From a phage, in the sequence record PZ674595.1: a stretch of 64,000 bases of DNA; one strand, 5' to 3'. Positions 6,552 through 63,368 of this stretch are shown one piece after another. Each line of letters begins with the position of its first letter. Position 1 is the stretch's first letter. The notes under the pieces are model-generated. The model was not told the DNA's origin, made no database searches, and saw only the letters and a program-made list of their open reading frames with translations. A program made the translations under genes and the position numbers.

Positions 6552-6824
6552 AAAGAATTATGGCGCTTGTTGAGGAAGTCACTCCTCTTACGCACTTTGT
6601 TTTGCCATGCCGGCAGTTAGCTTCTGCCTTTGACTATTCATGCGGCAACCCCGCATTTCGCCACAATGGGCAATTCACTTTTATGGAATAAACTGGCCGT
6701 TGTGTCGATTTAATTAGCATGGCCTTACCATGCTAATTTATTCAACTTGTACAATCCTACAAATCTATCCACTCAGGCTTACACCGTCTTCGTTATTGTA
6801 GAAATGAGGATCATCAGCGTTGAA

Positions 6825-7040
6825 TCAGCTTAGAGCAACGACATTTGCTGCTGCTGGGCCTTTAGCCCCATTCTCGATAGAGAATTCGACCTGCTGGCCT
6901 TCTTCCAAAGTGCGGAAATTATTACTCTGAATTGCCGAAAAATGTACAAAAACATCTTTACTGCCATCAGCAGGAGAAATAAAGCCAAAGCCTTTATCAG
7001 AGTTAAACCATTTTACTAAACCAGTCATTTTATTAGACAT
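6825..7040 (-). CDS. Cold-shock protein, CspA family (closest in my recollection to CspB/G/I)
   Basis: Translation [38 protein letters not shown]... with RNP motifs KGFGFI and VFVHF; ATG at 7040 is internal Met33 of the 103-aa track ORF, preceded by GAAGGT. Confidence 0.9.
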
Positions 7041-7369
7041 AGATATTACCTTCTTAATTTTGTGAGCCACATAGTGCGGCGAGAATTTGATCTGTATAGA
7101 TTGGGACTTACTTAGGCACTTAAGGAGGAGACTCACGAAGAAGGGAAATCAGAAGATAACACTGAACTGAGACTGCTTTACTAAAACTGCTTACATAAGG
7201 TCTGTCTTGCAAACCAACGATGCTATTAACGCATACCCCTTCTTTTCATGCAACCTTTATTTTTCAAAGATAACTAATTTTTGTCACCATTGGTTTAGTA
7301 AACGTTAACGAACCAGACGATGCCAGACACCTTTACAGAGAACAGATGCCCGCCAATTGGCGGGCATCA

Positions 7370-43595: not shown

Positions 43596-43985
43596 ATGGG
43601 CTTCCCTTCTCCTGCGGCGGATTATGCAGAGAGCCGTATTTCTCTTGATCAGCAACTAATCAGACATCCTTCAGCGACCTACTTCATGCGGGCGGCAGAC
43701 AGCCATCACCGTGAGGGAATATTGCAAGGTGCTTTGCTGGTGGTTGATTCCTCACTTACCCCGGTTGATGGTTCTCTGCTTGTATGCGCTCTGGATGGGG
43801 AATATCGCGTAAAAAGATACCGGAAGTATCCACGTCAGCATCTGGAGGATTTAAGAACCGGTAAGAAGGAAGAATTGCCAAAGGATGACGATGGATGCAC
43901 GGGCAGCAATGCCGTGTTTGGTGTGATCACTCACATTATCAACGACGCAAGAAGTGGCGAGTTTGATGATTGTCCCGTGATGTAG
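43596..43985 (+). CDS. humD: UmuD'-like protein lacking the N-terminal cleavable tail (P1 HumD-like)
   Basis: MGFPSPAADYAESRISLDQQLIRHPSATYFMRA aligns with UmuD residues after the Cys-Gly cleavage site; S24 peptidase-like C-terminus; RBS GAGG. Confidence 0.8.
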   Translation: MGFPSPAADYAESRISLDQQLIRHPSATYFMRAADSHHREGILQGALLVVDSSLTPVDGSLLVCALDGEYRVKRYRKYPRQHLEDLRTGKKEELPKDDDGCTGSNAVFGVITHIINDARSGEFDDCPVM

Positions 43986-44022: not shown

Positions 44023-45123
44023 TCACACTGCGCGGAATGCGATTTCGCCAGGTATTACTTCACCTTGCCAATACATTTGGGCAGCAACGCGATCTGCGAG
44101 GTCACGATAAATAGCCGTAAATTCGCTATCTGGACGACTAATAACGGTTGGTGTTCCGTTATCCAGATCTTCACGAAGAGAGATATGAAGTGGCATTTGG
44201 CCTAACAACTGCGTGTTGTATTTCTCGGCCAGTTTCTGTGCGCCACCGGTGCCAAAAATTGGCTCGTGATGACCGCAGTTACTGCAAATATGCACACTCA
44301 TGTTTTCGACGATACCCAGTACCGGCACTTCGACTTTTTCGAACATCACAATGCCTTTCTTCGCATCGATCAGCGCGATGTCTTGCGGCGTAGTTACCAC
44401 AACCGCACCAGTTACAGGAATGTTCTGCGCCAGCGTCAACTGAATATCACCAGTGCCCGGCGGCATATCGAGAACGAGATAGTCCAGATCAGGCCATAGA
44501 GTTTCCTGCAACATCTGCATCAGCGCCTTGCTGGCCATCGGTCCACGCCACACCATTGCATTGTCGTCGGTGACCAGATAACCAATAGAGTTGGTTGCCA
44601 GGCCATGAGACATGATAGGTGCCATGTGAGTACCGTCAGGTGAGGTTGGACGTTGGTTTTCCGCGCCCAGCATGGTTGGAATTGATGGACCATAGATATC
44701 GGCATCCAAAATACCAACTTTCGCACCTTCAGCAGCCAACGCCAGTGCCAGGTTTACCGCCGTGGAGGATTTACCCACGCCGCCCTTGCCTGAGCTGACG
44801 GCGATAATGTTCTTAACGCCATTAATGCCTGGTTGGTTTTTGACGCGCTTAAGCGTGGCAATGTTGTACGACAGCTTCCAGTCAATAGCCTTTGCGCCAG
44901 TGATACGGAGCAGATCACCACTACATTGCTCTTTCAGGTCTTCAAAAGGCTTATTCCACACGAAAGGCATGATTAGTTCGACATGCAGTGTGTCATCCAT
45001 CAACGCAACATGGTGTAACGCTTTAAGCGTAGTCAGGTTGTGTTTCAGGGTTGGGTGCTGAAAATTAGCCAGCGTACCGGCTACCATTGCTCTCAGGGCA
45101 TCCGGCGATTTGGACTCGCTCAT
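44023..45123 (-). CDS. mrp: iron-sulfur cluster carrier ATPase Mrp/ApbC
   Basis: 366 aa; IIAVSSGKGGVGKSSTAVNLALALAAEGAKVGILDADIYGPSIP and C-terminal ICSNCGHHEPIFG...GEIAFRAV essentially as in E. coli Mrp as recalled. Confidence 0.95.
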   Translation of the reverse strand: MSESKSPDALRAMVAGTLANFQHPTLKHNLTTLKALHHVALMDDTLHVELIMPFVWNKPFEDLKEQCSGDLLRITGAKAIDWKLSYNIATLKRVKNQPGINGVKNIIAVSSGKGGVGKSSTAVNLALALAAEGAKVGILDADIYGPSIPTMLGAENQRPTSPDGTHMAPIMSHGLATNSIGYLVTDDNAMVWRGPMASKALMQMLQETLWPDLDYLVLDMPPGTGDIQLTLAQNIPVTGAVVVTTPQDIALIDAKKGIVMFEKVEVPVLGIVENMSVHICSNCGHHEPIFGTGGAQKLAEKYNTQLLGQMPLHISLREDLDNGTPTVISRPDSEFTAIYRDLADRVAAQMYWQGEVIPGEIAFRAV

Positions 45124-45280
45124 CCCGTCTCCTTTATTTTAATTTGCGCAATTGTCGCCTTGTAGTGTACTCCAGCTACGACATTTAATCATTTATGAGA
45201 AATGCTGTTATCACATGGCAGACATAAGGCCATTTTGTTACTATCAAGCCCCTTTTCACTACAAAGAAGTAATGCCTACT

Positions 45281-47314
45281 ATGACCCAAGTCGCGAAGAA
45301 AATTCTGGTGACGTGCGCGCTGCCGTACGCTAACGGCTCAATCCACCTCGGCCATATGCTGGAGCACATCCAGGCTGATGTCTGGGTTCGTTACCAGCGA
45401 ATGCGCGGCCACGAGGTTAATTTCATCTGTGCCGACGATGCCCACGGTACGCCGATCATGCTGAAAGCACAGCAGCTTGGTATCACACCGGAGCAGATGA
45501 TTGGCGAAATGAGTCAGGAACACCAGACTGATTTCGCAGGCTTTAACATCAGCTATGACAACTATCACTCGACGCACAGCGAAGAGAACCGTCAGTTGTC
45601 TGAGCTTATCTATACTCGCCTGAAAGAGAACGGTTTTATTAAAAACCGCACTATCTCTCAGTTGTACGACCCGGAAAAAGGCATGTTCCTGCCGGATCGT
45701 TTTGTAAAAGGCACCTGCCCGAAATGTAAAGCGCCAGATCAATACGGCGATAACTGTGAAGTCTGCGGCGCAACATATAGCCCGACTGAATTGATCGAGC
45801 CGAAATCGGTGGTTTCTGGCGCTACCCCGGTAATGCGTGATTCCGAACACTTCTTCTTTGATCTGCCTTCTTTCAGCGAAATGTTGCAGGCATGGACCCG
45901 CAGCGGCGCGTTGCAGGAGCAGGTGGCGAACAAAATGCAGGAATGGTTTGAATCCGGCCTGCAACAGTGGGATATCTCCCGAGATGCGCCTTACTTCGGT
46001 TTTGAAATTCCGAACGCGCCGGGCAAATATTTCTACGTCTGGCTGGACGCGCCGATTGGCTACATGGGTTCCTTCAAGAATCTGTGCGACAAGCGCGGCG
46101 ATACCACCAGCTTCGATGAATACTGGAAGAAAGACTCCACCGCCGAGCTGTACCACTTCATCGGTAAAGATATTGTTTACTTCCACAGCCTGTTCTGGCC
46201 TGCCATGCTGGAAGGCAGCAACTTCCGCAAGCCGACCAACCTGTTTGTTCACGGCTATGTGACGGTGAACGGCGCGAAGATGTCCAAGTCTCGCGGCACC
46301 TTTGTTAAAGCCAGCACCTGGCTGAATCATTTTGACGCCGACAGCCTGCGTTACTACTACACTGCGAAACTCTCTTCGCGCATTGATGATATCGATCTCA
46401 ACCTGGAGGATTTCGTTCAGCGCGTGAATGCCGATATCGTGAACAAAGTGGTTAACCTGGCCTCCCGTAATGCAGGCTTTATCAACAAGCGTTTTGACGG
46501 CGTGCTGGCAAGCGAACTGGCTGACCCGCAACTGTACAAAACCTTTACTGATGCCGCTGAAGTGATTGGCGAAGCATGGGAAAGCCGCGAATTTGGTAAA
46601 GCTATCCGTGAAATCATGGCATTGGCTGACCTGGCTAACCGCTATGTCGATGAACAGGCTCCGTGGGTGGTGGCGAAGCAGGAAGGACGCGATGCCGATC
46701 TGCAGGCGATTTGCTCTATGGGCATTAACCTGTTCCGCGTGCTGATGACGTACCTGAAGCCGGTACTGCCGAAACTGACTGAACGTGCAGAAGCATTCCT
46801 GAATACAGAACTGACCTGGGATGGTATCCAGCAACCGCTGCTGGGCCATAAAGTAAATCCGTTCAAGGCACTGTATAACCGCATCGATATGAAGCAGGTT
46901 GAAGCACTGGTGGAAGCATCCAAAGAAGAAGTGAAAGCCACAGCCGCACCGGTAACTGGCCCACTGGCTGACGACCCGATTCAGGAAACTATCACCTTTG
47001 ACGACTTCGCCAAAGTTGACCTGCGCGTGGCGCTGATTGAAAACGCAGAGTTTGTAGAAGGTTCTGACAAACTGCTTCACCTGACGCTGGATCTCGGTGG
47101 TGAAAAGCGTAATGTCTTCTCAGGCATCCGTTCCGCTTATCCAGATCCACAGGCACTGATTGGTCGTCACACCATTATGGTGGCTAACCTGGCACCACGT
47201 AAAATGCGCTTCGGTATCTCTGAAGGCATGGTGATGGCTGCTGGCCCCGGCGGGAAAGATATCTTCCTGTTAAGCCCGGATGCTGGTGCTAAACCTGGCC
47301 ACCAGGTTAAGTAA
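45281..47314 (+). CDS. metG: methionyl-tRNA synthetase
   Basis: 677-aa product from ATG 45281 ([29 protein letters not shown]...KMSKS...); near-identical to E. coli MetG as recalled; track ORF begins upstream at 45152. Confidence 0.97.
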
Positions 47315-47361: not shown

Positions 47362-47475
47362 ATATAGACACAATCCCTTCTGATTTACACAGTACCTAAA
47401 ACAATTTGTTTTCTGCCTTTTGTTGATGGAGATAATAAACCACATAAGAAAACAACTTGTTTTGGAGTGGTTGAA

Positions 47476-47775
47476 ATGTTGAACATTACCCAAGCCTACC
47501 AGGTGGCATTGATCAGCTCATCTCATACATCAGAGGAAGATGCTCGCCGATTCATGATCGCAAGCAATGAGCTGGATTGGGTTTCACAAATTGAGTACGG
47601 TTGCATTGTCCACGCAGGGTTACAGGACGATGACTGGAAAGATGAGTTGCGTCGATATGGTATATCCGAGGGCGCGATTGCGAACATTCAGAAAGTACTT
47701 GATGTAGGCTTTGACTCTGTACATTTTGATTGTGGTGCACCGGTCGTTGAAGGGCTAGAGTGCTGGCAATGGTAA
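47476..47775 (+). CDS. hypothetical protein
   Basis: ATG 47476 behind GGAG; two AAACAAnnTGTTT motifs upstream (47398-47411, 47448-47463). Confidence 0.4.
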   Translation: MLNITQAYQVALISSSHTSEEDARRFMIASNELDWVSQIEYGCIVHAGLQDDDWKDELRRYGISEGAIANIQKVLDVGFDSVHFDCGAPVVEGLECWQW

Positions 47776-48839: not shown

Positions 48840-49700
48840 TGTTTATACAAATAAGAAAACAACTAAATAACAGATCAACGAAACGTCAACGCTTTCACCC
48901 GATTTGGTCTAAAAAATTGACGTTTTCACACATCACTTCTTATACCCGTAACTCTACGCAGCAGACAGCGCCACAGCGTCCAATTTTCACCACAGACGAC
49001 CCAACACACTACCAACAAAAACACACGCTCAAAATCGCTCCCGTTGCGTTACACAACCATATAAACAACTTATTTTCAGGCATAACAAAACAACTAAATA
49101 ACACACATGCCATTTCCAAAAACAACCAACCTCTTTATGGCAGGCTACCGAAAAGACCCACCTCTTCTCCCCAGTCTACCGAAAAGACCCACCTCTTCTC
49201 CCCAGGCTACCGGACAACCAACCTAACTTTCACAGGCAATCCGAAAACATTCATACGCGCGATACCCACGACACGCCATTCCCCAAACAGCGAAGAAACA
49301 CCAGAATCACTGAAACCCCAACGAAGCCTGTAACCGCAAGGATTCTCTCAATCCCAAAAGACACGAAACAGAACAATCACGGGAAACGCCATTACCCAAT
49401 ACACGAATAACTACAAAAGCCTTTCACACACTCCAGACAAACAACTCAAACACAACAACGAAAGGAATCGCCCACCTGCCATTACTCCATACACGGAGAA
49501 GAACAATCACCAAAACGACGAGAACACCCCATAGAAGAACCACCGCAAAACGAACGAAACCACATACACCGACAGAGAAAACAACACACCCAATTCACCA
49601 ACAGAAATAGTCGCCGTATAGAACATTCTGGAAGGAGTGAGCATTAACGCCTATAGAGAGGTTGAGACAGATAAAACACAACATGTATAGCGAAGAAGCC
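48840..49700. repeat. strand-asymmetric C/A-rich, G-poor tract with tandem 29-bp repeats
   Basis: Plus strand almost devoid of G over ~860 bp; perfect tandem copies of CTACCGAAAAGACCCACCTCTTCTCCCCA at 49155-49183 and 49186-49214 plus a degenerate third; track ORF 48839-49333 judged a composition artefact. Confidence 0.6.
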
Positions 49701-49810
49701 AGGTATGTATAAGTGGGGAGAGAAGGAGGGGTGTCGCCTCCTTTTTCGTATTTATTCAACTCCTGATTTTACCCCCCCGTAACACCCCTACGGTCAGCCT
49801 TCGGTCCATA

Positions 49811-49945
49811 CAGGGAAAAGGCTGCATCCCGCTACAGAAACGGCTGGGTTGCCTTCGGGGAACGGCTGGAGGTTTTCAGGGAAACGGTCGAGTTGCCTGT
49901 GTGGATTTCGGGAAAAGGCTCGATGCCGGTTCAGGAACGGTGGCG
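49811..49945. repeat. array of six ~14-bp direct repeats, consensus CRGGGAAAMGGCYG, spaced 21-24 bp
   Basis: Copies starting near 49811, 49835, 49856, 49877, 49909, 49932. Confidence 0.6.
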
Positions 49946-50324
49946 TACCGGTATAGCGTGAGGGAGAGTTGCGGCTGTCCACCTGTAATGTGCGGGAAGA
50001 AGAGAGGCGCTCACGTGCAGGCGAACTTACTTACCGCTGGATTCCCTCTGAATGCCCAGCTACAGCGTAATTGTGCCAGACAGTCAGCGGGTCACAATCG
50101 ATTTCAGTAGGTTTTCGGGGAGAGGATTATTCTGCCCACCAGCCCCGCGGCGCGCGTAGAGCAGAATATCGTAAATACTGGCTCTCGTGTCGTTCCCGGA
50201 TATTCACTGCCAAGCCTGGCTTTCCCGACATAAAATCCTTTTTCGCCTTTGTCTTATTTCGATAATAACACCAACAAGTAAACAACATATTTAGACGTTA
50301 TAGAAACGAAGTGAGGATGAAGAG

Positions 50325-50543
50325 ATGATTAAGATGCCTGTGACGGTTGAGGTGTGGGGCGTGGATTCCCTGGCTGAGTGTCTGGATGCAGTGGGGCCGG
50401 AGTTGTACCGCAAGTTGTGGTCGTTCGTCCCGGCAGAAGGGGAATCGCCCAAAGGGAAGGATATCTGGCACCTGCTGAGTGAAGATGAAAAGCGGGAGCT
50501 GGTGGGCGCGGTACACAGCGAGTTCCCGGGCGACGAAGATTAA
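50325..50543 (+). CDS. hypothetical small protein
   Basis: 72-aa acidic ORF; RBS GAGGATGAAGAG; terminator follows. Confidence 0.4.
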   Translation: MIKMPVTVEVWGVDSLAECLDAVGPELYRKLWSFVPAEGESPKGKDIWHLLSEDEKRELVGAVHSEFPGDED

Positions 50544-50548
50544 GAGTG

Positions 50549-50573
50549 AGGCCACCAGCACGGTGGCTTTTGT
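50549..50573 (+). terminator. terminator hairpin
   Basis: GCCACC-AGCAC-GGTGGC followed by TTTTGT. Confidence 0.6.
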
Positions 50574-50681
50574 CGCTATTAACCTCCGGGCAGCGCAGCA
50601 CCGTAACGATATACTTTGTGGCCGTTTTCTTACTGGTATTGTTTACGCAATTCAGAAAACAACATGTTTAAGGATTGCGTT

Positions 50682-51011
50682 ATGTTTGCAAATATCGACA
50701 TCAACCAAATCAAGAAAATGACTCAAAAAGAGTTTGACCAGTTTTATGAGTTAGAAGGTTGGTCTTCCACTCTGATCAATTCGCGGTGGGTGCTTGAGCT
50801 GATGACTCGTGATGACGCACCTGCTTTGATGATTTGCGACATGGGTGAAGATGCTGACTTTATGGATATGAGCGAATTTTGTGTGGACACATACAACCGC
50901 AGCCAGAAGTACTACTTCACATGCGATAGCGAAAATGACGTGATTTCTAAGATCTATCTTCACCTCGTCCAGCATTGGGACGTTCAGGAGTTTCTTGAGG
51001 TATTCGCGTAA
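50682..51011 (+). CDS. hypothetical small protein
   Basis: ATG 50682 behind AAGGA, 11 nt after motif GAAAACAACATGTTTA; track ORF starts at 50616. Confidence 0.4.
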   Translation: MFANIDINQIKKMTQKEFDQFYELEGWSSTLINSRWVLELMTRDDAPALMICDMGEDADFMDMSEFCVDTYNRSQKYYFTCDSENDVISKIYLHLVQHWDVQEFLEVFA

Positions 51012-51165
51012 TCACAATCAAAGCCAGCATTGCTGGCTTAACTTAATCTGTAGCCGCAGGGAAGAACCTGCATATCGCTCATGCGCCTGATCAATATGCT
51101 TTGTAGCCGTTTTCTTACTGGTATTATTTACGCCATTGAGAAAACAAGTTGTTTACGGAGTTGTG

Positions 51166-51477
51166 ATGAAAAAATCATTGGTTCTTGGTCTGGACAAAGA
51201 CCAGAAGAGAAAAGAGAAGCCTGCGCTGGTTGCTCAATTAACTTTGCTGGACATCGTTGCCAATGGAACCTCTATTCGTCTGTTCCGTGAAACAGCGGTG
51301 TCTTTCGATAAAAACACCTTTACTCGTTATGTAATGAATGTTCGTCGCCAGCGTGGAAAAGGCTGGGTGGCATTTCAAAGAATGTGGCCGGAACATCAGC
51401 TCGAACTGGCTTTGATGGAAGTTAACCGCGTGGCCCAGCAAGAGATTCAGAGAGCATCAGTGATGGCAATAGCCTGA
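51166..51477 (+). CDS. hypothetical small basic protein
   Basis: ATG 51166 behind ACGGAG, 10 nt after motif GAAAACAAGTTGTTTA; upstream 50 bp nearly identical to the region before gene 50682. Confidence 0.4.
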   Translation: MKKSLVLGLDKDQKRKEKPALVAQLTLLDIVANGTSIRLFRETAVSFDKNTFTRYVMNVRRQRGKGWVAFQRMWPEHQLELALMEVNRVAQQEIQRASVMAIA

Positions 51478-51603
51478 TAATGTGCAAGTGGTAATTAGTC
51501 GACCGTACGACAGCCCCGCCATCCTTACGGGGCTTTTTTGTATTGTAAGTACATACTTACGATCATAGAATAGAAAAATAACCAATACACTACGGAGAGT
51601 GAA

Positions 51604-51999
51604 ATGACCGTTAAACGCGAAAAACTGACAGTTGATGTTTACTATGCCTCTGAAACCGCCGAAGGTAAGAATGTGGCAAAAATCACCGTTGTTACGTACA
51701 ACACCGAAACTGGTGCCGAAGTCCAGGCCAGTACGATCGTGCGTAAAGGTGATGCCTCCGGCGGCGAGTACGCGACTCAATACCAGTCTATTTTCGATGC
51801 AACTGACCCGCTGCTGCTGAAAATCGAGAACTACTTCCGCCAGGTTGATGAAGAGGTGTTTGAAACCATGATGAATATGGTTAACACCGTATTCGCCTCC
51901 AGCCTGAATACCAACACTACCTGGATTGGTCAGTACGGCCTGCGCATTACCTCTGGCATTCCTGCCGACACCTTAATCCCTGAAAGCGTATTCGCTTAA
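51604..51999 (+). CDS. hypothetical protein
   Basis: 131-aa ORF; RBS ACGGAGAG; palindrome GTAAGTACATACTTAC with TTGTAA-N17-TAGAAT upstream. Confidence 0.45.
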   Translation: MTVKREKLTVDVYYASETAEGKNVAKITVVTYNTETGAEVQASTIVRKGDASGGEYATQYQSIFDATDPLLLKIENYFRQVDEEVFETMMNMVNTVFASSLNTNTTWIGQYGLRITSGIPADTLIPESVFA

Positions 52000-52009
52000 T
52001 CCTCTTTAA

Positions 52010-52036
52010 GTGGCGCGTAAACCGCGCCATTTTATT
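52010..52036 (+). terminator. Rho-independent terminator
   Basis: TGGCGCG-TAAAC-CGCGCCA followed by TTTTATT. Confidence 0.7.
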
Positions 52037-52116
52037 AAGCCCGATAACAATTTGTTTTCTGCCTTATCTGATTTGTGAAAATGATTTCACTGAAGCAACT
52101 TAATAAGGAAACCATC

Positions 52117-52491
52117 ATGGGACTTGATATCTATATCGAGACACAGCCTAAAAACGATCTGAATAACGAGGCATCCAGAAAGCGGGTTGCTTACTTCCGT
52201 AAGTTCAATGCGCTCGTTGGGTGGATGGAGCGCAACGTAGGTGAAGTCGAAAATTGTGAGCTTTTAGAATTAACGATGAATGACATTTGTTTTCTGAAGG
52301 CTCATTTGATGCACATAAACGAAAGTAATTGCGAAGAGTACTTGCCTACCCGGGAAGGTTTTTTCTTCGGCAGTCAGGAGTACGATGAAGGTTACTGGCA
52401 TGATGTGGGGCAGTTGAAAGAGCTTGTGGAAGATCTGATTAAGAACCACGACTTTCACAATAACAGACTGACCTTCTGCGCCTGGTGGTAA
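52117..52491 (+). CDS. hypothetical protein
   Basis: ATG 52117 behind AGGAAA; track ORF starts at 52075. Confidence 0.4.
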   Translation: MGLDIYIETQPKNDLNNEASRKRVAYFRKFNALVGWMERNVGEVENCELLELTMNDICFLKAHLMHINESNCEEYLPTREGFFFGSQEYDEGYWHDVGQLKELVEDLIKNHDFHNNRLTFCAWW

Positions 52492-52493
52492 AT

Positions 52494-52637
52494 ATGGGCG
52501 ATTTCAAGAAACGCCTGAAGGAAAGAGCCGAGATGGTCAGAAAGCAAAACGCCTCTTCTGTCATCAGATACGCAAGGCAGTTTAGTCGCAACAACAAATC
52601 AGTTGAGGAAAAGATCCTTAGCGTAATCGGGCGATAA
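52494..52637 (+). CDS. small basic peptide (47 aa), below track cutoff
   Basis: ATG 2 nt after upstream stop; followed by GGCCACCAGCGTTGGTGG hairpin. Confidence 0.25.
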   Translation: MGDFKKRLKERAEMVRKQNASSVIRYARQFSRNNKSVEEKILSVIGR

Positions 52638-52826
52638 TTATTAAGGCCACCAGCGTTGGTGGTCTTAAATAACTTTTAATAACCGAAGGTTAGTTTGAAA
52701 CCTGGCTATCAACTTCCAGAACCTTTCTTGTGTATTCAGCCTGTATTAACTTCTTTTATGCCTTATCTACACTGCGATAATTACACCAACAAGAAAACAA
52801 CATGTTTACGCAGTGAGGATATGCTC

Positions 52827-53108
52827 ATGACTGATTTCACCATTACCCCTAAAGCACAAAATGTATTCCTTGAATCATGGCTGGACTTGCCGGAAACAGA
52901 ACAGCAAGAAATGGATCATGTGGATTATGACGAGCAGGTAAGCACGCGATTCTTCCACTTTGAGGGCTGCGTTTACGACATTGCCGACTTCATGCGAGAT
53001 GACCGCTTCCCTGAATGGCACGCAAGCTATCCACTAAACGCCTTTGCCATGCTGATGATCCGTGTGGATGATTCAGGGGATACCATCGACATCGGTCTGC
53101 TCCACTAA
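52827..53108 (+). CDS. hypothetical small acidic protein
   Basis: ATG 52827 seven nt after GAGGA; 20 nt after motif GAAAACAACATGTTTA; track ORF starts at 52695. Confidence 0.4.
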   Translation: MTDFTITPKAQNVFLESWLDLPETEQQEMDHVDYDEQVSTRFFHFEGCVYDIADFMRDDRFPEWHASYPLNAFAMLMIRVDDSGDTIDIGLLH

Positions 53109-53159
53109 AGATTAAGGCCACCAATGCTGGTGGCCTTAAATGACCATCCTGTTTCCCGC

Positions 53160-53240
53160 AGGCTAAAAACACCAACCTCTTACCTCCAGGCAACCGACAA
53201 ACCCACCTGTTCCCGTCCGGCTACCGCAACTTTCCACTTT
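53160..53240. repeat. three ~30-bp C-rich direct repeats related to the 49155-49245 repeats
   Basis: GCAGGCTAAAAACACCAACCTCTTACCTC / CAGGCAACCGACAAACCCACCTGTTCCCG / CGGCTACCGCAACTTTCCAC. Confidence 0.5.
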
Positions 53241-53312
53241 GACGCCTTATTCGTACAACGATAATTAACACCAACAAGAAAACAATTTGTTATTTACGAT
53301 AAGGAATTAATC

Positions 53313-53795
53313 ATGAATTTTATCGCTACTGTAAACGCACCCGCACATGGCAATATCGCTGTAACGTTCTCTGACATTGAAAAACGAGTACTTGGTGCAT
53401 GGCGCGACAATGAGACGGTAGAACTGTCAGCACAAGAAAAATGCATTATTGCACGCGACATCATTGGCAATCGTCGTTACTCGCGGGTATTTGAGAAAGC
53501 GTATGTGGTAAATTCTGGGTTCGGAACGTTCGTCTTTCCGGTGCGCTCAGGGCGATTCTGCCAGTCCAAGCTGATTGAGTTCGCTACGCAGATTTCTGTC
53601 TGGATTAAAACTCAATCGTCGTTCAAATTTTCCGACGATGAAGCAGTATCGCAGGGGATGCGGATCGCCAACAATGCGATTAAATGCAAAAACATTACGT
53701 ATACCGCTGGCGTTGACACATGGAAACTGTTTTGCGCTAACTTTATGCTGAATGTATACGCAAGCAACCGCATCCACATCCTTGATGGCGTGTAA
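53313..53795 (+). CDS. hypothetical protein
   Basis: 160-aa ORF; RBS AAGGAA; promoter motif GAAAACAATTTGTTA 21 nt upstream. Confidence 0.4.
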   Translation: MNFIATVNAPAHGNIAVTFSDIEKRVLGAWRDNETVELSAQEKCIIARDIIGNRRYSRVFEKAYVVNSGFGTFVFPVRSGRFCQSKLIEFATQISVWIKTQSSFKFSDDEAVSQGMRIANNAIKCKNITYTAGVDTWKLFCANFMLNVYASNRIHILDGV

Positions 53796-53835
53796 CTGAG
53801 AAGAGGGCCAGAAACGGCCCTTTCTCTATAGCCAC

Positions 53836-53930
53836 CAGCTGCCGCAGGGAAATTTTCAGAAACGGCGAGGAACGTATTCATGAGCCGACGGGAAACGGCC
53901 AGGATTTTTTCGGGAAACGGCTGCATTCGC
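53836..53930. repeat. second array of CRGGGAAAMGGCYG-type direct repeats
   Basis: CAGGGAAATTTTCAG, CAGAAACGGCGAGG, CGGGAAACGGCCAGG, CGGGAAACGGCTGC. Confidence 0.5.
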
Positions 53931-55634: not shown

Positions 55635-56156
55635 TTAAAATGGAAGGATTCGTTCAACCCAATCGAAGAAAACAAGTATTTTTCTGCCGTCTTCTAACTT
55701 AAGAGTGACCTGACAAGCATCAACGCCTCTTGACACCCCTTCTATTTCACGACCGTCTGCCATGTAGACCCTTATAGATTGGTCGTTTTGATAAGCCTTG
55801 CGACATATCGCAAAAAAGTCACGGCGTGATGGCTGATTGTCAACATAGTCTGGATGTATTGTTAGCCTACCTTTGAACTCGCGAGCAATGCCATCGATTA
55901 CACCTGATTCAATTGTGCTAATGCGCTCAAGTGGGAGTCTTATACGATTTTCTTTATCATATGGAAGCGGGCATAAATCTAGCTTATTGCGGGAAGGCAT
56001 TGTCCCCTGAACGTACATGCAAAACACCTGACCGTCTTCAAGCGTGACTCTTACAGGAATGTTGTTCTTCCGCCAGAACATAAGTATGTTTTCAGCATGT
56101 TCGTAGTCTCGCGGCCAGACTTCAGCCGGTATGCCGTAGGTGATGTCTTTAACCAT
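55635..56156 (-). CDS. hypothetical protein with internal sequence duplication (AT-rich block)
   Basis: 173 aa; two similar segments (VRVTLEDGQVFCMYVQG and IRVYMADGREIEG...VTLKLEDGRKILVFF). Confidence 0.45.
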   Translation of the reverse strand: MVKDITYGIPAEVWPRDYEHAENILMFWRKNNIPVRVTLEDGQVFCMYVQGTMPSRNKLDLCPLPYDKENRIRLPLERISTIESGVIDGIAREFKGRLTIHPDYVDNQPSRRDFFAICRKAYQNDQSIRVYMADGREIEGVSRGVDACQVTLKLEDGRKILVFFDWVERILPF

Positions 56157-59917: not shown

Positions 59918-59999
59918 AAACCTCTTTCCTTAGTGCCTTTTGTATGTTATTTGGCTATTATAATAAGTAAGTGATTACTTAGTGGATTGTAGCAATAAA

Positions 60000-60680
60000 A
60001 TGGATGTAAAAATCACGATTTTGCAGGTTGATGTTGCCAACCTTCGCCCGAATACCTGGAACACCAATTCGGTTGGTGCGCAGAATTTTGAAAAACTGAA
60101 AGGTTCTATCGAAAAATTGGGCTTTTTTAAGCCAATTTTGGCTCGTGAACTTGAAGATGGATTTTTTGAAATCCTCGGCGGCGAACATCGCTGGCGTGCC
60201 GCTATTGAGCAAGGAATTTCAACGGTTCCGGTGCTTTCTGTGGGCAAAATTAGCGATGTCGTAGCTAAACAGATGTCACTGGTGGACAACGAGCGATACG
60301 GTGAAGACGACCAAATCGCATTGCAACGCTTCATTGAAGAAATTCAGTCAGAACTTGACTATCAGCTGTCTGAAATCGCCCCGTATGACGACGAAATCTC
60401 GATGGTTTTAGCAAAAGAGGCGGCAATCGACCTTGAAGCACTGGAGGCGTTGTCTCGTGGTAGTGATGAGCCTGTCGATACCGACAAACGAGAGAAAACC
60501 GAACGTGTGGGTGCGGAACATCAGACCATGCGCTTCAAAGTAACTTTCGATGCGTCAGATCGTGTTGCAGAAACCATAAAAAACATCATCAAAGAGCAGG
60601 CTATTAACACCGGTAATGAAATGGAGAACGCTGGTGAGGCTCTGGTGTGGCTGGTCGACTACTACAAGGAGCGTATGTAA
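60000..60680 (+). CDS. ParB N-terminal-domain (ParB/Srx fold) protein 1
   Basis: ILGGEHRWRAA arginine-finger motif of ParB-type NTP-binding domains; track ORF starts with GTG at 59982; start choice uncertain (no clear RBS). Confidence 0.6.
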   Translation: MDVKITILQVDVANLRPNTWNTNSVGAQNFEKLKGSIEKLGFFKPILARELEDGFFEILGGEHRWRAAIEQGISTVPVLSVGKISDVVAKQMSLVDNERYGEDDQIALQRFIEEIQSELDYQLSEIAPYDDEISMVLAKEAAIDLEALEALSRGSDEPVDTDKREKTERVGAEHQTMRFKVTFDASDRVAETIKNIIKEQAINTGNEMENAGEALVWLVDYYKERM

Positions 60681-61348
60681 TGACCAAAAAGTTTGAAATC
60701 GTATATCGCGACCCGGCAGATCTTATTCCCTATGAGATGAATGCCAAAAAGCATGATGAACAGCAGATCCGAGATCTAGCCGCAGCCATTAAAAAGCGCG
60801 GATTTGACCAGCCAATTACGGTCGATAAGAACGACGTAATTATTACTGGCCACGGCCGCCGTGAGGCTGCAATTTTTGCTGGACTTGAGCGCGTACCGGT
60901 TATTGTTCGCGATGATCTCAGTGATGACGAGGTTCGTGCGAAGCGCCTTGAAGATAACCGACTTGCCAGCATTGATTACGATGCAATTAAGCTACAGAAA
61001 GAGCTTGAGTCGCTTGTTCTGGACGATATCGAGGTTTTCGGCTTTGAAGAGCGTGAGTTGAATGTTCTCGTTGGCAGCATGACAGAAGAAATGGACACCG
61101 ACTCGCTAGTTATCGATCTTGGCGAAGAAACTAAACGACAGAAGGATGAACACACCGAGATCAGTCGTGAAGTTGCAGCGGAAGAAGTACGTGTTGTCGA
61201 CGTATTGGGCTTTAAAACGCTTCCTGCTGGCTCTGCCATTGTTGTTGGTGATTTGCTTGCCCACATGGAAGAAATGACGGGAGAAAGCGGGGTAGACGCA
61301 TTTGTGGCATATGCGGAGAAGATCTCTTCCGGGGAGATGGCTGCATGA
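60680..61348 (+). CDS. ParB N-terminal-domain protein 2 (paralogue)
   Basis: IITGHGRREAA motif; ATG overlaps upstream stop (TAATG); acidic C-terminus. Confidence 0.6.
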   Translation: MTKKFEIVYRDPADLIPYEMNAKKHDEQQIRDLAAAIKKRGFDQPITVDKNDVIITGHGRREAAIFAGLERVPVIVRDDLSDDEVRAKRLEDNRLASIDYDAIKLQKELESLVLDDIEVFGFEERELNVLVGSMTEEMDTDSLVIDLGEETKRQKDEHTEISREVAAEEVRVVDVLGFKTLPAGSAIVVGDLLAHMEEMTGESGVDAFVAYAEKISSGEMAA

Positions 61349-62906: not shown

Positions 62907-63173
62907 ATGACGTTAACCGATAAACAAAAGGACATCATCAAAACGCTCAATCTCGGTTATGAGCGAGGTCATCTACTTGACCTGGACGAATTGCTTGAAG
63001 TTTTGCCGTACAAGACAACCAAGCAAAGTATCCAGTTCTCAATTCGCGCTCTGATAAAAAAGGGGCTGGTGGAGAAAGGGCATACGCGCCAACGCAGTGA
63101 CAATCGCTATCACCGCCGAACTCTTGGGTTAACCACTTTAGGTCGAGCCAAAGCGAAGTTACTGGTGATGTAA
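62907..63173 (+). CDS. small putative winged-helix DNA-binding protein
   Basis: 88-aa basic ORF 10 nt after the GNAT-like gene; RBS AAGGA. Confidence 0.4.
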   Translation: MTLTDKQKDIIKTLNLGYERGHLLDLDELLEVLPYKTTKQSIQFSIRALIKKGLVEKGHTRQRSDNRYHRRTLGLTTLGRAKAKLLVM

Positions 63174-63253: not shown

Positions 63254-63368
63254 TTCGTAAGACATGCCAGACCTAATTAAACACCTCAGAAAACAAGTTG
63301 GTTAGCAGATGCAGTAAACAAGTTGTTTTAGAGCGCATGGACGCGCTCTGTGTGTTTTAGAGGGATCT

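What the first reader, a model, noticed from the sequence alone, without database searches (positions are those of the whole stretch)
50265..53795. Array of eight small genes, each with its own AAACAA-type motif and terminator, including a duplicated about 55-bp promoter module
Seen in sequence: genes of 47-160 aa at 50325, 50682, 51166, 51604, 52117, 52494, 52827 and 53313, individually preceded by the palindromic motif and mostly followed by hairpins (several of the GGCCACCA...TGGTGGCC type). The upstream regions of genes 50682 and 51166 (50618-50680 vs 51098-51165) are nearly identical, including GCCGTTTTCTTACTGGTATT and the motif. Inference: independently transcribed small genes of unknown function in a phage are classic candidates for host-takeover, anti-defence or regulatory proteins; the duplicated promoter suggests cassette shuffling.
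Basis: partly seen in the sequence, partly recalled or inferred. Interest (0 to 1): 0.45.

Follow-up and report, generated by a model that had tools for sequence, protein, structure and literature searches.

The report
Shuffled small-gene cassettes in a phage-plasmid
This stretch is the variable accessory-gene region of an SSU5/pHCM2-type phage-plasmid of E. coli: eight small genes of unknown function, arranged as units that each have a promoter and a terminator, gained, lost and swapped between relatives by breaks that fall in those repeated control sequences.

Summary
All eight ORFs exist and evolve as coding sequence. They form seven transcription units, each ending in a stable hairpin. The 77-nt promoter duplication (83% identity) is there.

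Three corrections:
- Only six of the eight genes carry the AAACA-N3-TGTTT palindrome.
- Gene 51604 has a different promoter and palindrome.
- Gene 52494 starts 3 nt after the stop of 52117 and has no promoter of its own.

The palindrome is not special to the array. It belongs to a set of about 19 sites in the window, against 0.7 expected. These sites head replication genes, parA and the terminase operon of an SSU5/pHCM2/Cyrano-type phage-plasmid. Its position relative to the -10 element varies (+14/+15, about -24, -38), which suits an operator for an unidentified regulator.

Across about 80 related elements the array shows 16 presence/absence patterns and cassette-level allele swaps. All 15 homology breakpoints lie in intergenic control DNA or at start codons, and nine lie inside promoter or terminator modules. 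This works like the PeSL cassettes of T4-type phages.

Every protein tested is restricted to this lineage and has no family or fold match. An anti-defence role is neither supported nor excluded.

The parts
50245..50292 (+). P1, the promoter-operator module of g1. GCC-box at 50245-50253, -10 GATAAT at 50261-50266, and a weak palindrome AAACAACATATTT at 50280-50292.
   Evidence: Geometry. The site scores 14.3 bits with a matrix built only from sites outside the array. In 13 related loci the right end of a homology block falls at 50284-50293.
50325..50543 (+). g1: 72 aa, acidic (pI 4.5), function unknown (phrog_6757).
   Evidence: It is absent from Cyrano and many E. coli relatives.
50545..50577 (+). 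t1: a GGCCACC/GGTGGC hairpin followed by UUUUGU.
   Evidence: dG -16.6 kcal/mol, z -3.2.
50598..50674 (+). P2, the first copy of the duplicated module, upstream of g2. GCC-box at 50621, extended -10 TGgTATTGT (hexamer 50637-50642), palindrome at 50657-50669.
   Evidence: family D7 (77 nt, 83% identical to 51083-51159). In 19 loci the left end of a homology block falls at 50650-50654.
50682..51011 (+). g2: 109 aa, acidic (pI 4.2), found only in Escherichia-type elements (phrog_7645).
51021..51039 (+). t2: a hairpin with no U-tract.
   Evidence: dG -12.4 kcal/mol, z -3.9.
51083..51159 (+). P3, the second copy of the duplicated module, upstream of g3. Extended -10 TGgTATTAT (hexamer 51122-51127) and the best palindrome in the array, AAACAAGTTGTTT at 51142-51154.
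   Evidence: The site scores 25.9 bits. An operator lies upstream of g3 in 79 of 79 loci.
51166..51477 (+). g3: 103 aa, basic (pI 10.5), part of the conserved backbone.
   Evidence: Only 16 cluster representatives were found among 1.84 billion proteins. A profile search of PDB sequences found nothing.
51505..51543 (+). t3: an intrinsic terminator, AGCCCCG...CGGGGCU followed by UUUUUUGU.
   Evidence: dG -17.8 kcal/mol. It is conserved in SSU5 and Klebsiella relatives.
51543..51571 (+). P4, a different promoter upstream of g4: TTGTAA, a 17-nt spacer, TAGAAT, overlapping the palindrome GTAAGTACATACTTAC (51545-51560).
   Evidence: Found by the promoter scan and conserved in relatives. A near-identical palindrome lies upstream of the Cyrano major tail gene, and a related one lies in the intergenic region next to its repressor gene.
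51604..51999 (+). g4: 131 aa, acidic. It is the fastest-diverging backbone gene (36-100% identity) and no matching fold was found.
52008..52032 (+). t4: an intrinsic terminator, GUGGCGCG...CGCGCCAU followed by UUUAUU.
   Evidence: dG -15.2 kcal/mol, z -3.7.
52045..52082 (+). P5, upstream of g5. Here the palindrome TAACAATTTGTTT (52045-52057) lies upstream of the -10, centred near -38. GCC-box GCCTTATCT at 52061, extended -10 TGtGAAAAT.
   Evidence: In 4 loci the right end of a homology block falls at 52069-52071.
52117..52637 (+). The g5-g6 bicistron. g5 is 124 aa and acidic (52117-52491). g6 is 47 aa and basic (52494-52637). They join at TGGTAAatATG.
   Evidence: In Klebsiella-type loci g5 joins g7 through the same junction. 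g6 is CYRAN_109, expressed about 6 times background in the lysogen.
52641..52668 (+). t6: the TTAAGGCCACCA...TGGTGGTCTTAA hairpin, with no U-tract.
   Evidence: dG -17.4 kcal/mol, z -4.9. (D9, I1). In 16 loci a homology block ends at 52670-52673.
52760..52807 (+). P7, upstream of g7. GCCTTATCT at 52760, extended -10 TGcGATAAT (hexamer 52776-52781), palindrome at 52795-52807.
52827..53108 (+). g7: 93 aa, very acidic (pI 4.1), part of the backbone. Public records mislabel it 'ABC transporter'.
53112..53139 (+). t7: the TTAAGGCCACCA...TGGTGGCCTTAA hairpin, a copy of t6.
   Evidence: dG -20.1 kcal/mol. In 20 loci the left end of a homology block falls at 53109-53123.
53244..53292 (+). P8, upstream of g8. 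GCC-box at 53244, -10 GATAAT at 53260-53265, palindrome AAACAATTTGTTA at 53280-53292.
   Evidence: An operator lies upstream of g8 in 85 of 85 loci.
53313..53795 (+). g8: 160 aa, a backbone gene with no matching solved fold.
53798..53826 (+). t8: a terminator hairpin followed by UUUCUCU.
   Evidence: dG -17.7 kcal/mol, z -4.1.

Best explanation
**What it is.** The region is the hyperplastic accessory-gene array of an SSU5/pHCM2/Cyrano-type phage-plasmid. It holds seven transcription units, six monocistronic plus the g5-g6 pair.

**How a unit is built.** Six units share one homologous module of about 55 nt:
- a GCC-box exactly 16 nt upstream of a -10 hexamer, with an extended-10 TGn upstream of the hexamer in four of the six (P2, P3, P5, P7);
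- a palindrome, AGAAAACAA-N-TTGTTTTCT in its full form, centred at +14/+15 in five units and at -38 in one.

Each unit then has a Shine-Dalgarno sequence, a small ORF and a stem-loop directly after the stop codon.

**Inferred regulation.** The palindrome is the operator of a phage-plasmid-encoded dimeric DNA-binding regulator that has not been identified. The same site heads replication and nucleotide-metabolism operons, parA and the terminase operon. The array would therefore be held low in the plasmid state and switched on with the lytic programme. g4 is wired differently, through a second palindrome.

**Shown evolution.** The modules and hairpins are repeated sequence, and the boundaries of deletions, insertions and allele swaps between Escherichia, Salmonella and Klebsiella elements fall in or next to them.

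**Inferred mechanism of that evolution.** Recombination between module copies causes these changes. For example, the duplicated module flanks g2, which is inserted relative to SSU5.

**Protein function.** The products are lineage-restricted proteins with no recognisable function.
For: **Identity of the element**
- The array is 100% identical to E. coli plasmids NZ_CP104844 and NZ_MT773673 and 98.9% to phage Cyrano.

**The module**
- There are five direct copies of 55 nt at 60-100% identity to the reference copy (D1).
- The GCC-box to -10 spacing of 16 nt is fixed in 6 of 6 modules.

**The set of sites**
- The window has 19 sites at 12 bits or more, against 0.74 in shuffles.
- A matrix built only from 11 sites outside the array recovers all six array sites.
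- In Cyrano the sites precede terS, parA, the helicase, cobT, RNR-beta, TciA and others. None lies inside the structural module at 135-28000.
- The perfect 19-mer occurs in only 14 stretches of 2.9 million viral contigs. Eleven of these are close SSU5-type relatives, two are distant ones and one has no match.
- The site sits at +14/+15, about -24 (parA) or -38 relative to the -10.

**Conservation and expression**
- The operator is conserved upstream of g2 (36/36 loci), g3 (79/79), g5 (41/41) and g8 (85/85).
- In lysogen RNA-seq, 12 of 15 genes that follow an operator are at no more than 1.3 times background.

**Shuffling**
- There are 16 presence/absence patterns.
- Loss of g1 joins the palindrome of P1 (50284) to that of P2 (50654).
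- Loss of g7 joins t6 (52670-73) to t7 (53111).
- Absence of g5-g6 joins the GCC-box of P5 (52069-71) to P7 (52748).
- Nine of 15 breakpoint clusters lie in modules, against 21% expected (P = 0.001). None lies inside a coding sequence.
- A per-feature identity table shows the mosaic pattern.
Against: - No transcription start sites are mapped. The consensus sigma-70 scan flags none of the six modules, because they lack a good -35. Promoter activity is therefore inferred.
- The binding protein is unknown.
- The parA operon carries a strong site yet is expressed about 5 times background in the lysogen, and g8 about 2.6 times.
- Most phage genes are at background in the lysogen anyway, so the RNA-seq does not separate repression from lack of an activator.
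- The fixed module geometry may reflect common descent of the copies rather than functional constraint.
- Six of 15 breakpoints lie in spacers or at start codons rather than in the modules themselves.
- In Klebsiella-type loci g5 sits between P7 and g7 without a promoter of its own, so not every gain is explained by exchange between modules.
Confidence: 0.7

Rival explanations
1. The palindrome is a positive promoter element. It would be the binding site of a phage activator or sigma-appropriating factor, as the MotA box is for T4 middle promoters. The module would then be a phage-specific promoter class rather than a repressed sigma-70 promoter.
For: - The modules lack a consensus -35.
- They carry a rigidly spaced GCC-box at -28 to -20.
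- The genes are near background in the lysogen, as expected if an activator is missing.
- Three sites are centred near -38, a position typical of class II activators.
Against: - In five of six array promoters, and in most other sites, the palindrome is centred at about +14/+15, downstream of the predicted start. At parA it lies between -35 and -10. These are repressor-like positions.
- Four of the six array promoters (P2, P3, P5, P7) have an extended-10 TGn and would not need an activator; P1 and P8 lack it.
- The parA operon is active in the lysogen although it carries the site.
Confidence: 0.17
2. The motif acts in the RNA. It would be a 5'-UTR element controlling translation, processing or stability of each small mRNA.
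For: - The centre lies 18-27 nt upstream of the start codon for g2, g3, g7 and g8, inside the predicted leader.
- The flanks are A-rich.
Against: - The stem would be five or six A-U pairs, which is too weak to be stable.
- At g5, 40821 and 47399 the palindrome lies upstream of the -10 and would not be transcribed from that promoter.
- The two half-sites are conserved symmetrically, as expected for a dimer bound to DNA.
- Rfam finds nothing here.
Confidence: 0.06
3. One reading: the array is an anti-defence or host-takeover island, and its variability reflects an arms race with host immunity. This is compatible with the main explanation. It concerns what the proteins do.
For: - The proteins are small and five of eight are strongly acidic, pI 4.1-4.8.
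- Each unit is autonomous and gene content varies between relatives.
- g4 diverges fast, down to 36% identity.
- All four tested families (g3, g4, g7, g8) are confined to this mobile-element lineage.
- Transcript levels rise in macrophage conditions.
Against: - No match to any known anti-defence or defence family.
- The published DefenseFinder screen of SSU5-group contigs reports only Rad among complete anti-defence systems.
- Two confident models match no known inhibitor fold.
- Five genes are a backbone conserved across genera under purifying selection. That also fits housekeeping roles in the phage-plasmid life cycle.
Confidence: 0.3
4. Cassettes move by site-specific recombination, as in integrons, at the GGCCACC hairpins or at the palindromes, and not by homologous or illegitimate recombination between repeated modules.
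For: - Recurrent, precise junctions fall at hairpins t6 and t7 and at the palindromes.
- The t6 and t7 hairpins are 28-nt imperfect palindromes flanked by TTAA.
Against: - The junctions use at least four different sequence types: palindrome, GCC-box, hairpin and spacer.
- Each cassette carries its own promoter, unlike integron cassettes.
- No integrase lies next to the array.
- Identity between modules (60-89%) is enough for recombination by the RecA, UvsY and exonuclease genes annotated in Cyrano.
Confidence: 0.07

Closest known systems
PeSL (promoter-early stem-loop) regulatory cassettes in the hyperplastic regions of T4-type phages (Arbiol et al. 2010, PMC2839356; Comeau et al. 2014, PMC4122927)
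   Same: - Short repeated motifs that combine a promoter with a stem-loop terminator.
- They flank small genes of unknown function in a variable region.
- Insertions, deletions and replacements between close relatives have their boundaries in the motifs.
- The stem-loops separate the units from one another.
   Different: - The host element here is a temperate siphovirus phage-plasmid, not a lytic T4-type myovirus.
- The promoter has a -10 (extended-10 TGn in four of six) with no consensus -35.
- The stem-loop is a separate element placed after the stop codon, 2 to about 105 nt upstream of the next promoter, and is not embedded in that promoter.
- The module also carries a palindromic operator that it shares with the core operons of the genome.
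- Mini-circles have not been tested.
Dispersed operator sets of plasmid prophages and plasmids: the P1 C1 repressor operators, and the KorA/KorB operators of RK2 (from established knowledge)
   Same: - One conserved operator is repeated about 20 times around an extrachromosomal element.
- It sits at the promoters of many separate operons, covering replication, partition and lytic or transfer functions.
- Its position relative to the promoter varies.
   Different: - The sequence is unrelated to the C1 operator (asymmetric ATTGCTCTAATAAATTT), to the KorB site (TTTAGCSGCTAAA) and to the KorA site (GTTTAGCTAAAC).
- The binding protein is not identified.
- Repression has not been shown.
Morons of lambdoid prophages
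   Same: Autonomous promoter-gene-terminator units of unknown or accessory function inserted between backbone genes.
   Different: Morons are defined by expression from the repressed prophage. Here six of the seven units are at or near background in the lysogen, and only g6 (CYRAN_109) passed the published moron threshold.

Membership tests
PeSL cassettes (T4-type phages) | A strong sigma-70-like promoter with consensus -35 and -10 elements and an AT-rich upstream region. | tested here: inconclusive
   All six modules have a -10 hexamer, with an extended-10 TGn in four of them: TGcGATAAT, TGgTATTAT, TGgTATTGT and TGtGAAAAT. The consensus scan reports no -35/-10 pair for any of the six modules. 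Promoter activity was not measured.
PeSL cassettes (T4-type phages) | A stable stem-loop that is part of the same compact motif, lying within or overlapping the promoter. | tested here: not met
   Stable hairpins exist, but they follow the stop codon as separate elements. They lie 2 nt (t3 to P4), 13 nt (t4 to P5), about 45-65 nt (t1 to P2, t2 to P3) and about 90-105 nt (t6 to P7, t7 to P8) from the next promoter.
PeSL cassettes (T4-type phages) | Concentrated in a hyperplastic region, immediately upstream of genes of unknown function. | tested here: met
   Six of about 19 sites in 64 kb lie in this 3.5-kb array. All the downstream genes lack any family assignment.
PeSL cassettes (T4-type phages) | Insertion, deletion and replacement boundaries between relatives fall in the motifs. 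| tested here: met
   Nine of 15 breakpoint clusters lie in modules (P = 0.001) and none lies inside a coding sequence.
PeSL cassettes (T4-type phages) | Formation of small circular DNAs by exchange between neighbouring motifs. | not testable with these tools
   This needs outward-facing PCR or long reads from induced cultures.
Moron | An autonomous unit with its own promoter and terminator. | tested here: met
   Met by sequence architecture only.
Moron | Expressed from the repressed prophage. | tested here: not met
   Cyrano lysogen in LB, against a median background of 9.8: g2 12.8, g3 12.2, g4 17.0, g5 5.7, g7 6.7, g8 25.5. Only g6, at 57.9, exceeds the authors' cut-off of 49.
Global operator sets (P1 C1; RK2 KorA/KorB) | Many copies of one operator at dispersed promoters of the element. 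| tested here: met
   19 sites in the window against 0.74 expected, and 21 in Cyrano.
Global operator sets (P1 C1; RK2 KorA/KorB) | A cognate repressor encoded by the element binds these sites. | not testable with these tools
   Candidates only: an 88-aa protein at 62907-63173 that I judge by eye to look like a winged helix and that has no Pfam match; two ParB_N proteins at 59982-61348; an FljA-like protein at 55635-56156; and outside the window Cyrano CYRAN_37, 45 and 46.
Global operator sets (P1 C1; RK2 KorA/KorB) | The operator sequence matches the known consensus. | tested here: not met
   AGAAAACAA-N-TTGTTTTCT, read directly, differs from the C1, KorA and KorB consensus sequences. Those consensus sequences come from my own knowledge.
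Known anti-defence protein families | Sequence or fold similarity to a characterised inhibitor. | tested here: not met
   - Pfam, NCBIfam and PADLOC gave no significant match, and the PHROG matches are all to families of unknown function.
- PDB profile searches of g3, g4 and g8 found nothing.
- Dedicated anti-defence model sets were not available here. The published DefenseFinder screen reports only Rad among complete anti-defence systems in the SSU5 group.
Integron cassette array | Promoterless cassettes bounded by attC sites next to an integron integrase. | tested here: not met
   Each unit has its own promoter module. No integrase is annotated within 8 kb on either side. Junctions use several different sequence types.

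The most novel reading that the evidence does not exclude
The 19-bp palindrome defines a global set of about 20 operators in SSU5/pHCM2/pMT1-type phage-plasmids that no paper found in the searches here describes. The logic would resemble that of P1 C1 or RK2 KorB. The promoter-operator modules would also serve as portable recombination sites that move small genes of unknown function between Escherichia, Salmonella and Klebsiella elements. At least some of these proteins, including g4 and g8 with no known fold, would be new host-takeover or anti-defence factors.
Probability: 0.3. Interest if true: 0.6.

Novelty: new variant of a known kind. Interest (0 to 1): 0.42.

Why it matters
SSU5-type phage-plasmids are common in clinical Enterobacterales. 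Examples are pHCM2 of S. Typhi, pMT1 of Y. pestis, pLF82/Cyrano and carriers of resistance genes. I found no paper describing their gene regulation.

- **A handle on regulation.** A defined operator motif, with a list of the promoters it heads, allows a direct search for the regulator and a test of how the plasmid-to-lytic switch is wired.
- **Reach of a known mechanism.** Gene content in this region turns over at repeated regulatory modules. That extends shuffling by regulatory cassettes, described for lytic T4-type phages, to a temperate phage-plasmid.
- **Where new cargo is likely to appear.** The result points to the sites where new genes would most plausibly be inserted.
- **A short list for screening.** The eight proteins, and about a dozen alternative cassettes in relatives, are compact and lineage-restricted. 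They are a manageable set for toxicity and anti-defence screens.

Tried and rejected
**Family and structure searches that found nothing usable**
- Pfam, NCBIfam and PADLOC scans of all eight proteins gave nothing significant. The PHROG matches are all to families of unknown function.
- The N-terminus of g4 gave three weak hits to the same CARF family: Cas_APE2256 at E 0.047, TIGR02619 at 0.026 and Csm6 at 0.026. I rejected these. All are far below threshold, and that region of the confident model is an antiparallel beta-sheet, not a Rossmann-like CARF fold.
- Profile searches of g3, g4 and g8 against PDB sequences found nothing.
- The exhaustive search with g3 found only 16 cluster representatives, all at least 47% identical, so there are no remote relatives to borrow a function from.
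- Pfam scans of ten alternative cassette proteins from relatives gave only a sub-threshold HTH hit, for the minus-strand protein resembling SSU5_116.

**Sequence-level checks**
- Rfam finds no RNA family in the array.
- The sigma-70 consensus scan detects only the g4 promoter, so the six shared modules are not classical -35/-10 promoters.
- SSU5's g7 promoter contains TTATCCACA, a perfect DnaA box. The window has TTATCTACA and other copies differ, so I treated it as chance.
- I compared the palindrome from memory with the sites of LacI/PurR, GntR, LexA, IHF, RcsB, parS and KorA/KorB. None matches.
- The perfect 19-mer occurs in two distant relatives and one unrelated viral contig, but only once in each stretch held (3-13 kb), so this says nothing about the regulator.

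**Literature**
- Searches for an SSU5 operator, repressor or transcriptome returned nothing relevant.

Full report
**Context**

The window is a phage-plasmid of the SSU5/pHCM2 group.
- The 3.5-kb finding is 100% identical to E. coli plasmids NZ_CP104844 and NZ_MT773673 and 98.9% identical to phage Cyrano (pLF82). It matches 722 plasmid records from Klebsiella, Escherichia, Enterobacter, Yersinia, Salmonella and others.
- Annotated relatives call every gene here 'hypothetical'.
- Cyrano produces virions and replicates as a plasmid of about 5.5 copies per cell (PMC9928086).

**Check of the observation**

Genes:
- The eight + strand ORFs are at the stated coordinates and each has a Shine-Dalgarno-like sequence.
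- I collected 12-61 distinct nucleotide alleles per gene from about 80 related loci. All eight show variation biased to the third codon position and pN/pS of 0.05-0.52.
- This includes the 47-aa ORF at 52494, which PGAP omits but the Cyrano annotation includes as CYRAN_109. All eight are therefore genes.

Hairpins:
- A stable hairpin follows each of the seven units, with dG from -12.4 to -20.1 kcal/mol and z from -2.5 to -4.9.
- Those after g1, g3, g4 and g8 have U-tracts. Those after g2, g6 and g7 do not.
- t6 and t7 are 82%-identical copies of a TTAAGGCCACCA...TGGTGGCCTTAA element.

Duplication and motif:
- The duplicated promoter is 50598-50674 versus 51083-51159, 77 nt at 83% identity.
- The motif AAACANNNTGTTT, allowing one mismatch, occurs 21 times in the window against 4.6 expected.

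Corrections:
- Only six of the eight genes have the motif.
- g4 (51604) has a different promoter, TTGTAA-17-TAGAAT, overlapping a palindrome GTAAGTACATACTTAC. This is conserved in Salmonella and Klebsiella relatives.
- g6 starts 3 nt after the stop of g5.

**Anatomy of the module**

- I aligned the upstream regions within the window and across Escherichia, Salmonella (SSU5) and Klebsiella elements.
- The shared module is a GCC-box (GCCkTTwyY) that starts exactly 16 nt before the -10 hexamer in all six array promoters. The -10 hexamers are GATAAT (P1, P7, P8), TATTAT (P3), TATTGT (P2) and GAAAAT (P5), and four carry an extended-10 TGn: TGcGATAAT (P7), TGgTATTAT (P3), TGgTATTGT (P2), TGtGAAAAT (P5).
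- The palindrome is centred at +14/+15 relative to a start predicted 7 nt after the -10. In P5 it is centred at -38.
- No consensus -35 is present, which is why the simple scan misses these promoters.
- Promoter function is an inference from sequence.

**The palindrome is genome-wide**

- In its full form it reads AGAAAACAA-N-TTGTTTTCT.
- A position-weight matrix finds 19 sites at 12 bits or more in the window, against 0.74 in Markov shuffles.
- A matrix built only from 11 sites outside the array still recovers all six array sites, at 14.3-25.9 bits.
- In the complete Cyrano genome, high-scoring sites lie immediately upstream of terS (two sites), parA, the replicative helicase, cobT, RNR-beta, TciA, several hypothetical genes and the array. 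None lies inside the 28-kb structural module.
- Besides +14/+15 and -38, the site at parA lies between the predicted -35 and -10.
- Variable placement over the core promoter is typical of a repressor operator and awkward for a core promoter element or an activator.
- The perfect 19-mer occurs in only 14 stretches of the 2.9-million-contig viral collection. Eleven are close SSU5-type relatives, two are distant relatives and one has no match to Cyrano.
- I could not identify the binding protein. Candidates are listed in the membership table.

**Expression**

The data come from published RNA-seq of the LF82 lysogen (PMC9928086, S1 Table).
- In LB, normalised expression was 12.8, 12.2, 17.0, 5.7, 57.9, 6.7 and 25.5 for g2 to g8, against a median background of 9.8.
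- Only g6 passed the authors' 'moron' cut-off.
- Twelve of 15 genes that directly follow an operator are at no more than 1.3 times background. parA is about 5 times, the helicase about 2 times and g8 about 2.6 times.
- Levels of most array genes rise by 2-4 log2 units inside macrophages (columns identified).
- Neighbouring genes differ up to about 30-fold in one condition (g5 3.0 against g6 8.0 log2 units at B6). That fits separate units, or at least separate RNA fates.
- These data are compatible with repression in the plasmid state but do not prove it.

**Comparative genomics**

I anchored on g8 and retrieved 79 loci from IMG/VR, plus five annotated phages.

Presence and absence of the eight genes falls into 16 patterns. 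The commonest are 1-34--78 (25 loci), -23456-8 (12), 12345678 (10), 1-345-78 (8) and 123456-8 (6).
- g1, g3, g4, g7 and g8 form a backbone shared by all three genera.
- g2 and g6 occur only in Escherichia-type arrays.
- g5 also occurs in some Klebsiella-type arrays.

Relatives carry at least a dozen other small cassettes here, several behind the same module, plus IS insertions.

Boundaries are informative:
- Loss of g1 joins W50284, inside the P1 palindrome, to W50654, at the P2 palindrome.
- Loss of g7 joins hairpin t6 (52670-73) to hairpin t7 (53111).
- Absence of g5-g6 joins the GCC-box of P5 (52069-71) to P7 (52748).
- Loss of g1 and g2 together joins P1 to P3.
- In SSU5, g1 is followed directly by one module and then g3.

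Taken systematically, there are 15 breakpoint clusters. Nine lie in modules within 8 nt, against 21% expected (binomial P = 0.001). The other six lie in intergenic spacers or at start codons, and none lies inside a coding sequence.

Mosaic alleles confirm exchange at the level of cassettes:
- L029 and L035 have g1, g2 and g5-g8 at 96-99% identity, g3 at 73% and no g4 match at the nucleotide level. L030 is similar but has g4 at 66% and lacks g7.
- L022 and L023 combine E. coli-type g2, g3 and g8 with Klebsiella-type g4 and g7.

Not every gain uses a module. In Klebsiella-type loci g5 sits without a promoter of its own between P7 and g7, joined by the same TAAatATG junction that joins g5 to g6 here.

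**Proteins**

- Five are strongly acidic (pI 4.1-4.8). g3 and g6 are basic.
- No Pfam, NCBIfam or PADLOC family matches. All PHROGs hit are of unknown function.
- Homologues of g8, g7, g4 and g3 are confined to SSU5-type elements of Enterobacterales. g3 has only 16 cluster representatives among 1.84 billion proteins.
- Function is therefore unknown. The anti-defence idea is neither supported nor excluded.

**Comparison with known systems**

- In how it works, this is closest to the PeSL cassettes of T4-type phages: repeated promoter-plus-stem-loop motifs flanking genes of unknown function, with recombination between them driving modular shuffling (PMC2839356, PMC4122927).
- It is not a PeSL by strict definition. 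The element is a temperate phage-plasmid, the promoters lack a consensus -35 (four of six have an extended-10 TGn), the stem-loop is a separate terminator, and the module carries an operator shared with core operons.
- The dispersed operator resembles the logic of P1 C1 or RK2 KorA/KorB, but the sequence differs and the protein is unknown.
- The units are not morons in the strict sense, because most are silent in the lysogen.
- No paper I found describes the motif, its set of target promoters or the shuffling in SSU5-type elements.

**Verdict**

- It is best seen as a new variant of a known kind.
- The evolutionary part (breakpoints confined to control DNA) is well supported.
- The regulatory part (repressor operator) is an inference.
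- The proposed protein function remains open.

Noticed in passing
window 48840-49620: About 800 nt without credible ORFs, strongly A+C-rich on the + strand (GC skew -0.42 to -0.52, AT skew +0.26 to +0.57). It starts with half-operator-like AAGAAAACAACTAAATAAC (repeated at 49083) and holds a weaker operator-like site at 49063. C-rich, G-poor RNA is typical of a Rho loading site, so it might shield the array from upstream transcription. It appears conserved in relatives.
   Followed up: partly
window 49119-49246 and 53137-53230: Units of 30-31 nt (CAGGCTACCGAAAAGACCCACCTCTTCTCCC; 2.3 tandem copies at 95% identity at 49141-49212) recur in degenerate form between hairpin t7 and promoter P8. Relatives keep a similar ACCGAA...CCCACC...CAGGC stretch upstream of g8. 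Function unknown; they could be protein-binding repeats.
   Followed up: partly
window 49810-49945 and 53840-53925: Clusters of GGGAAACGGC-type repeats lie on both sides of the array. All four perfect CRGGRAAMGGY matches in the 64-kb window are here (49856, 49909, 53889, 53911). They look like iterons. Their role and any link to the array's boundaries are unknown.
   Followed up: partly
window 51545-51560; Cyrano 9022 and 42607 (L007): The g4 promoter palindrome GTAAGTACATACTTAC is nearly identical to one upstream of the Cyrano major tail gene (GTAAGTATATACTTAC). It is related to GTAAGTGCTTAC in the intergenic region between the putative repressor CYRAN_45 and CYRAN_46. There are three occurrences against about 1.1 expected. 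This may be a second operator class, which would put g4 under different control from its neighbours.
   Followed up: partly
window 52494-52637 (g6, CYRAN_109): In the LF82 lysogen, g6 reads about 10 times higher than g5 (57.9 against 5.7), which lies directly upstream in the same unit. This suggests an internal promoter, a stable 3' fragment protected by hairpin t6, or an antisense RNA.
   Followed up: no
window 44023-47314: A copy of the host-like divergent gene pair apbC(mrp)/metG (methionyl-tRNA synthetase) sits inside the phage-plasmid, just after a strongly expressed S24 LexA-like peptidase gene (43596-43985).
   Followed up: no
window 6800-7218 (- strand): A full-length match to the cspA thermoregulator RNA (Rfam RF01766, 185.7 bits). 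The element therefore carries a cspA-type cold-shock gene leader.
   Followed up: no
window 47399-47462 and 63291-63328: Two places have paired operators. One pair flanks the -10 of the DUF5983 gene at 47467-47775. The other pair lies 25 nt apart just upstream of the terminase small-subunit gene, immediately after an 88-aa protein (62907-63173) that I judge by eye to look like a winged helix and that is a candidate regulator.
   Followed up: partly
L001 5186-6414; L047, L058, L078 (array region); L075 upstream of the array: IS2, IS26-like, IS3-family and IS200-family insertions occur in or next to the array in several relatives. One relative (L075) carries a secreted protein with the CKPHDC motif that I recall from Ivy-type lysozyme inhibitors. 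Others carry 232-aa and 310-aa genes of unknown function in place of small cassettes.
   Followed up: partly
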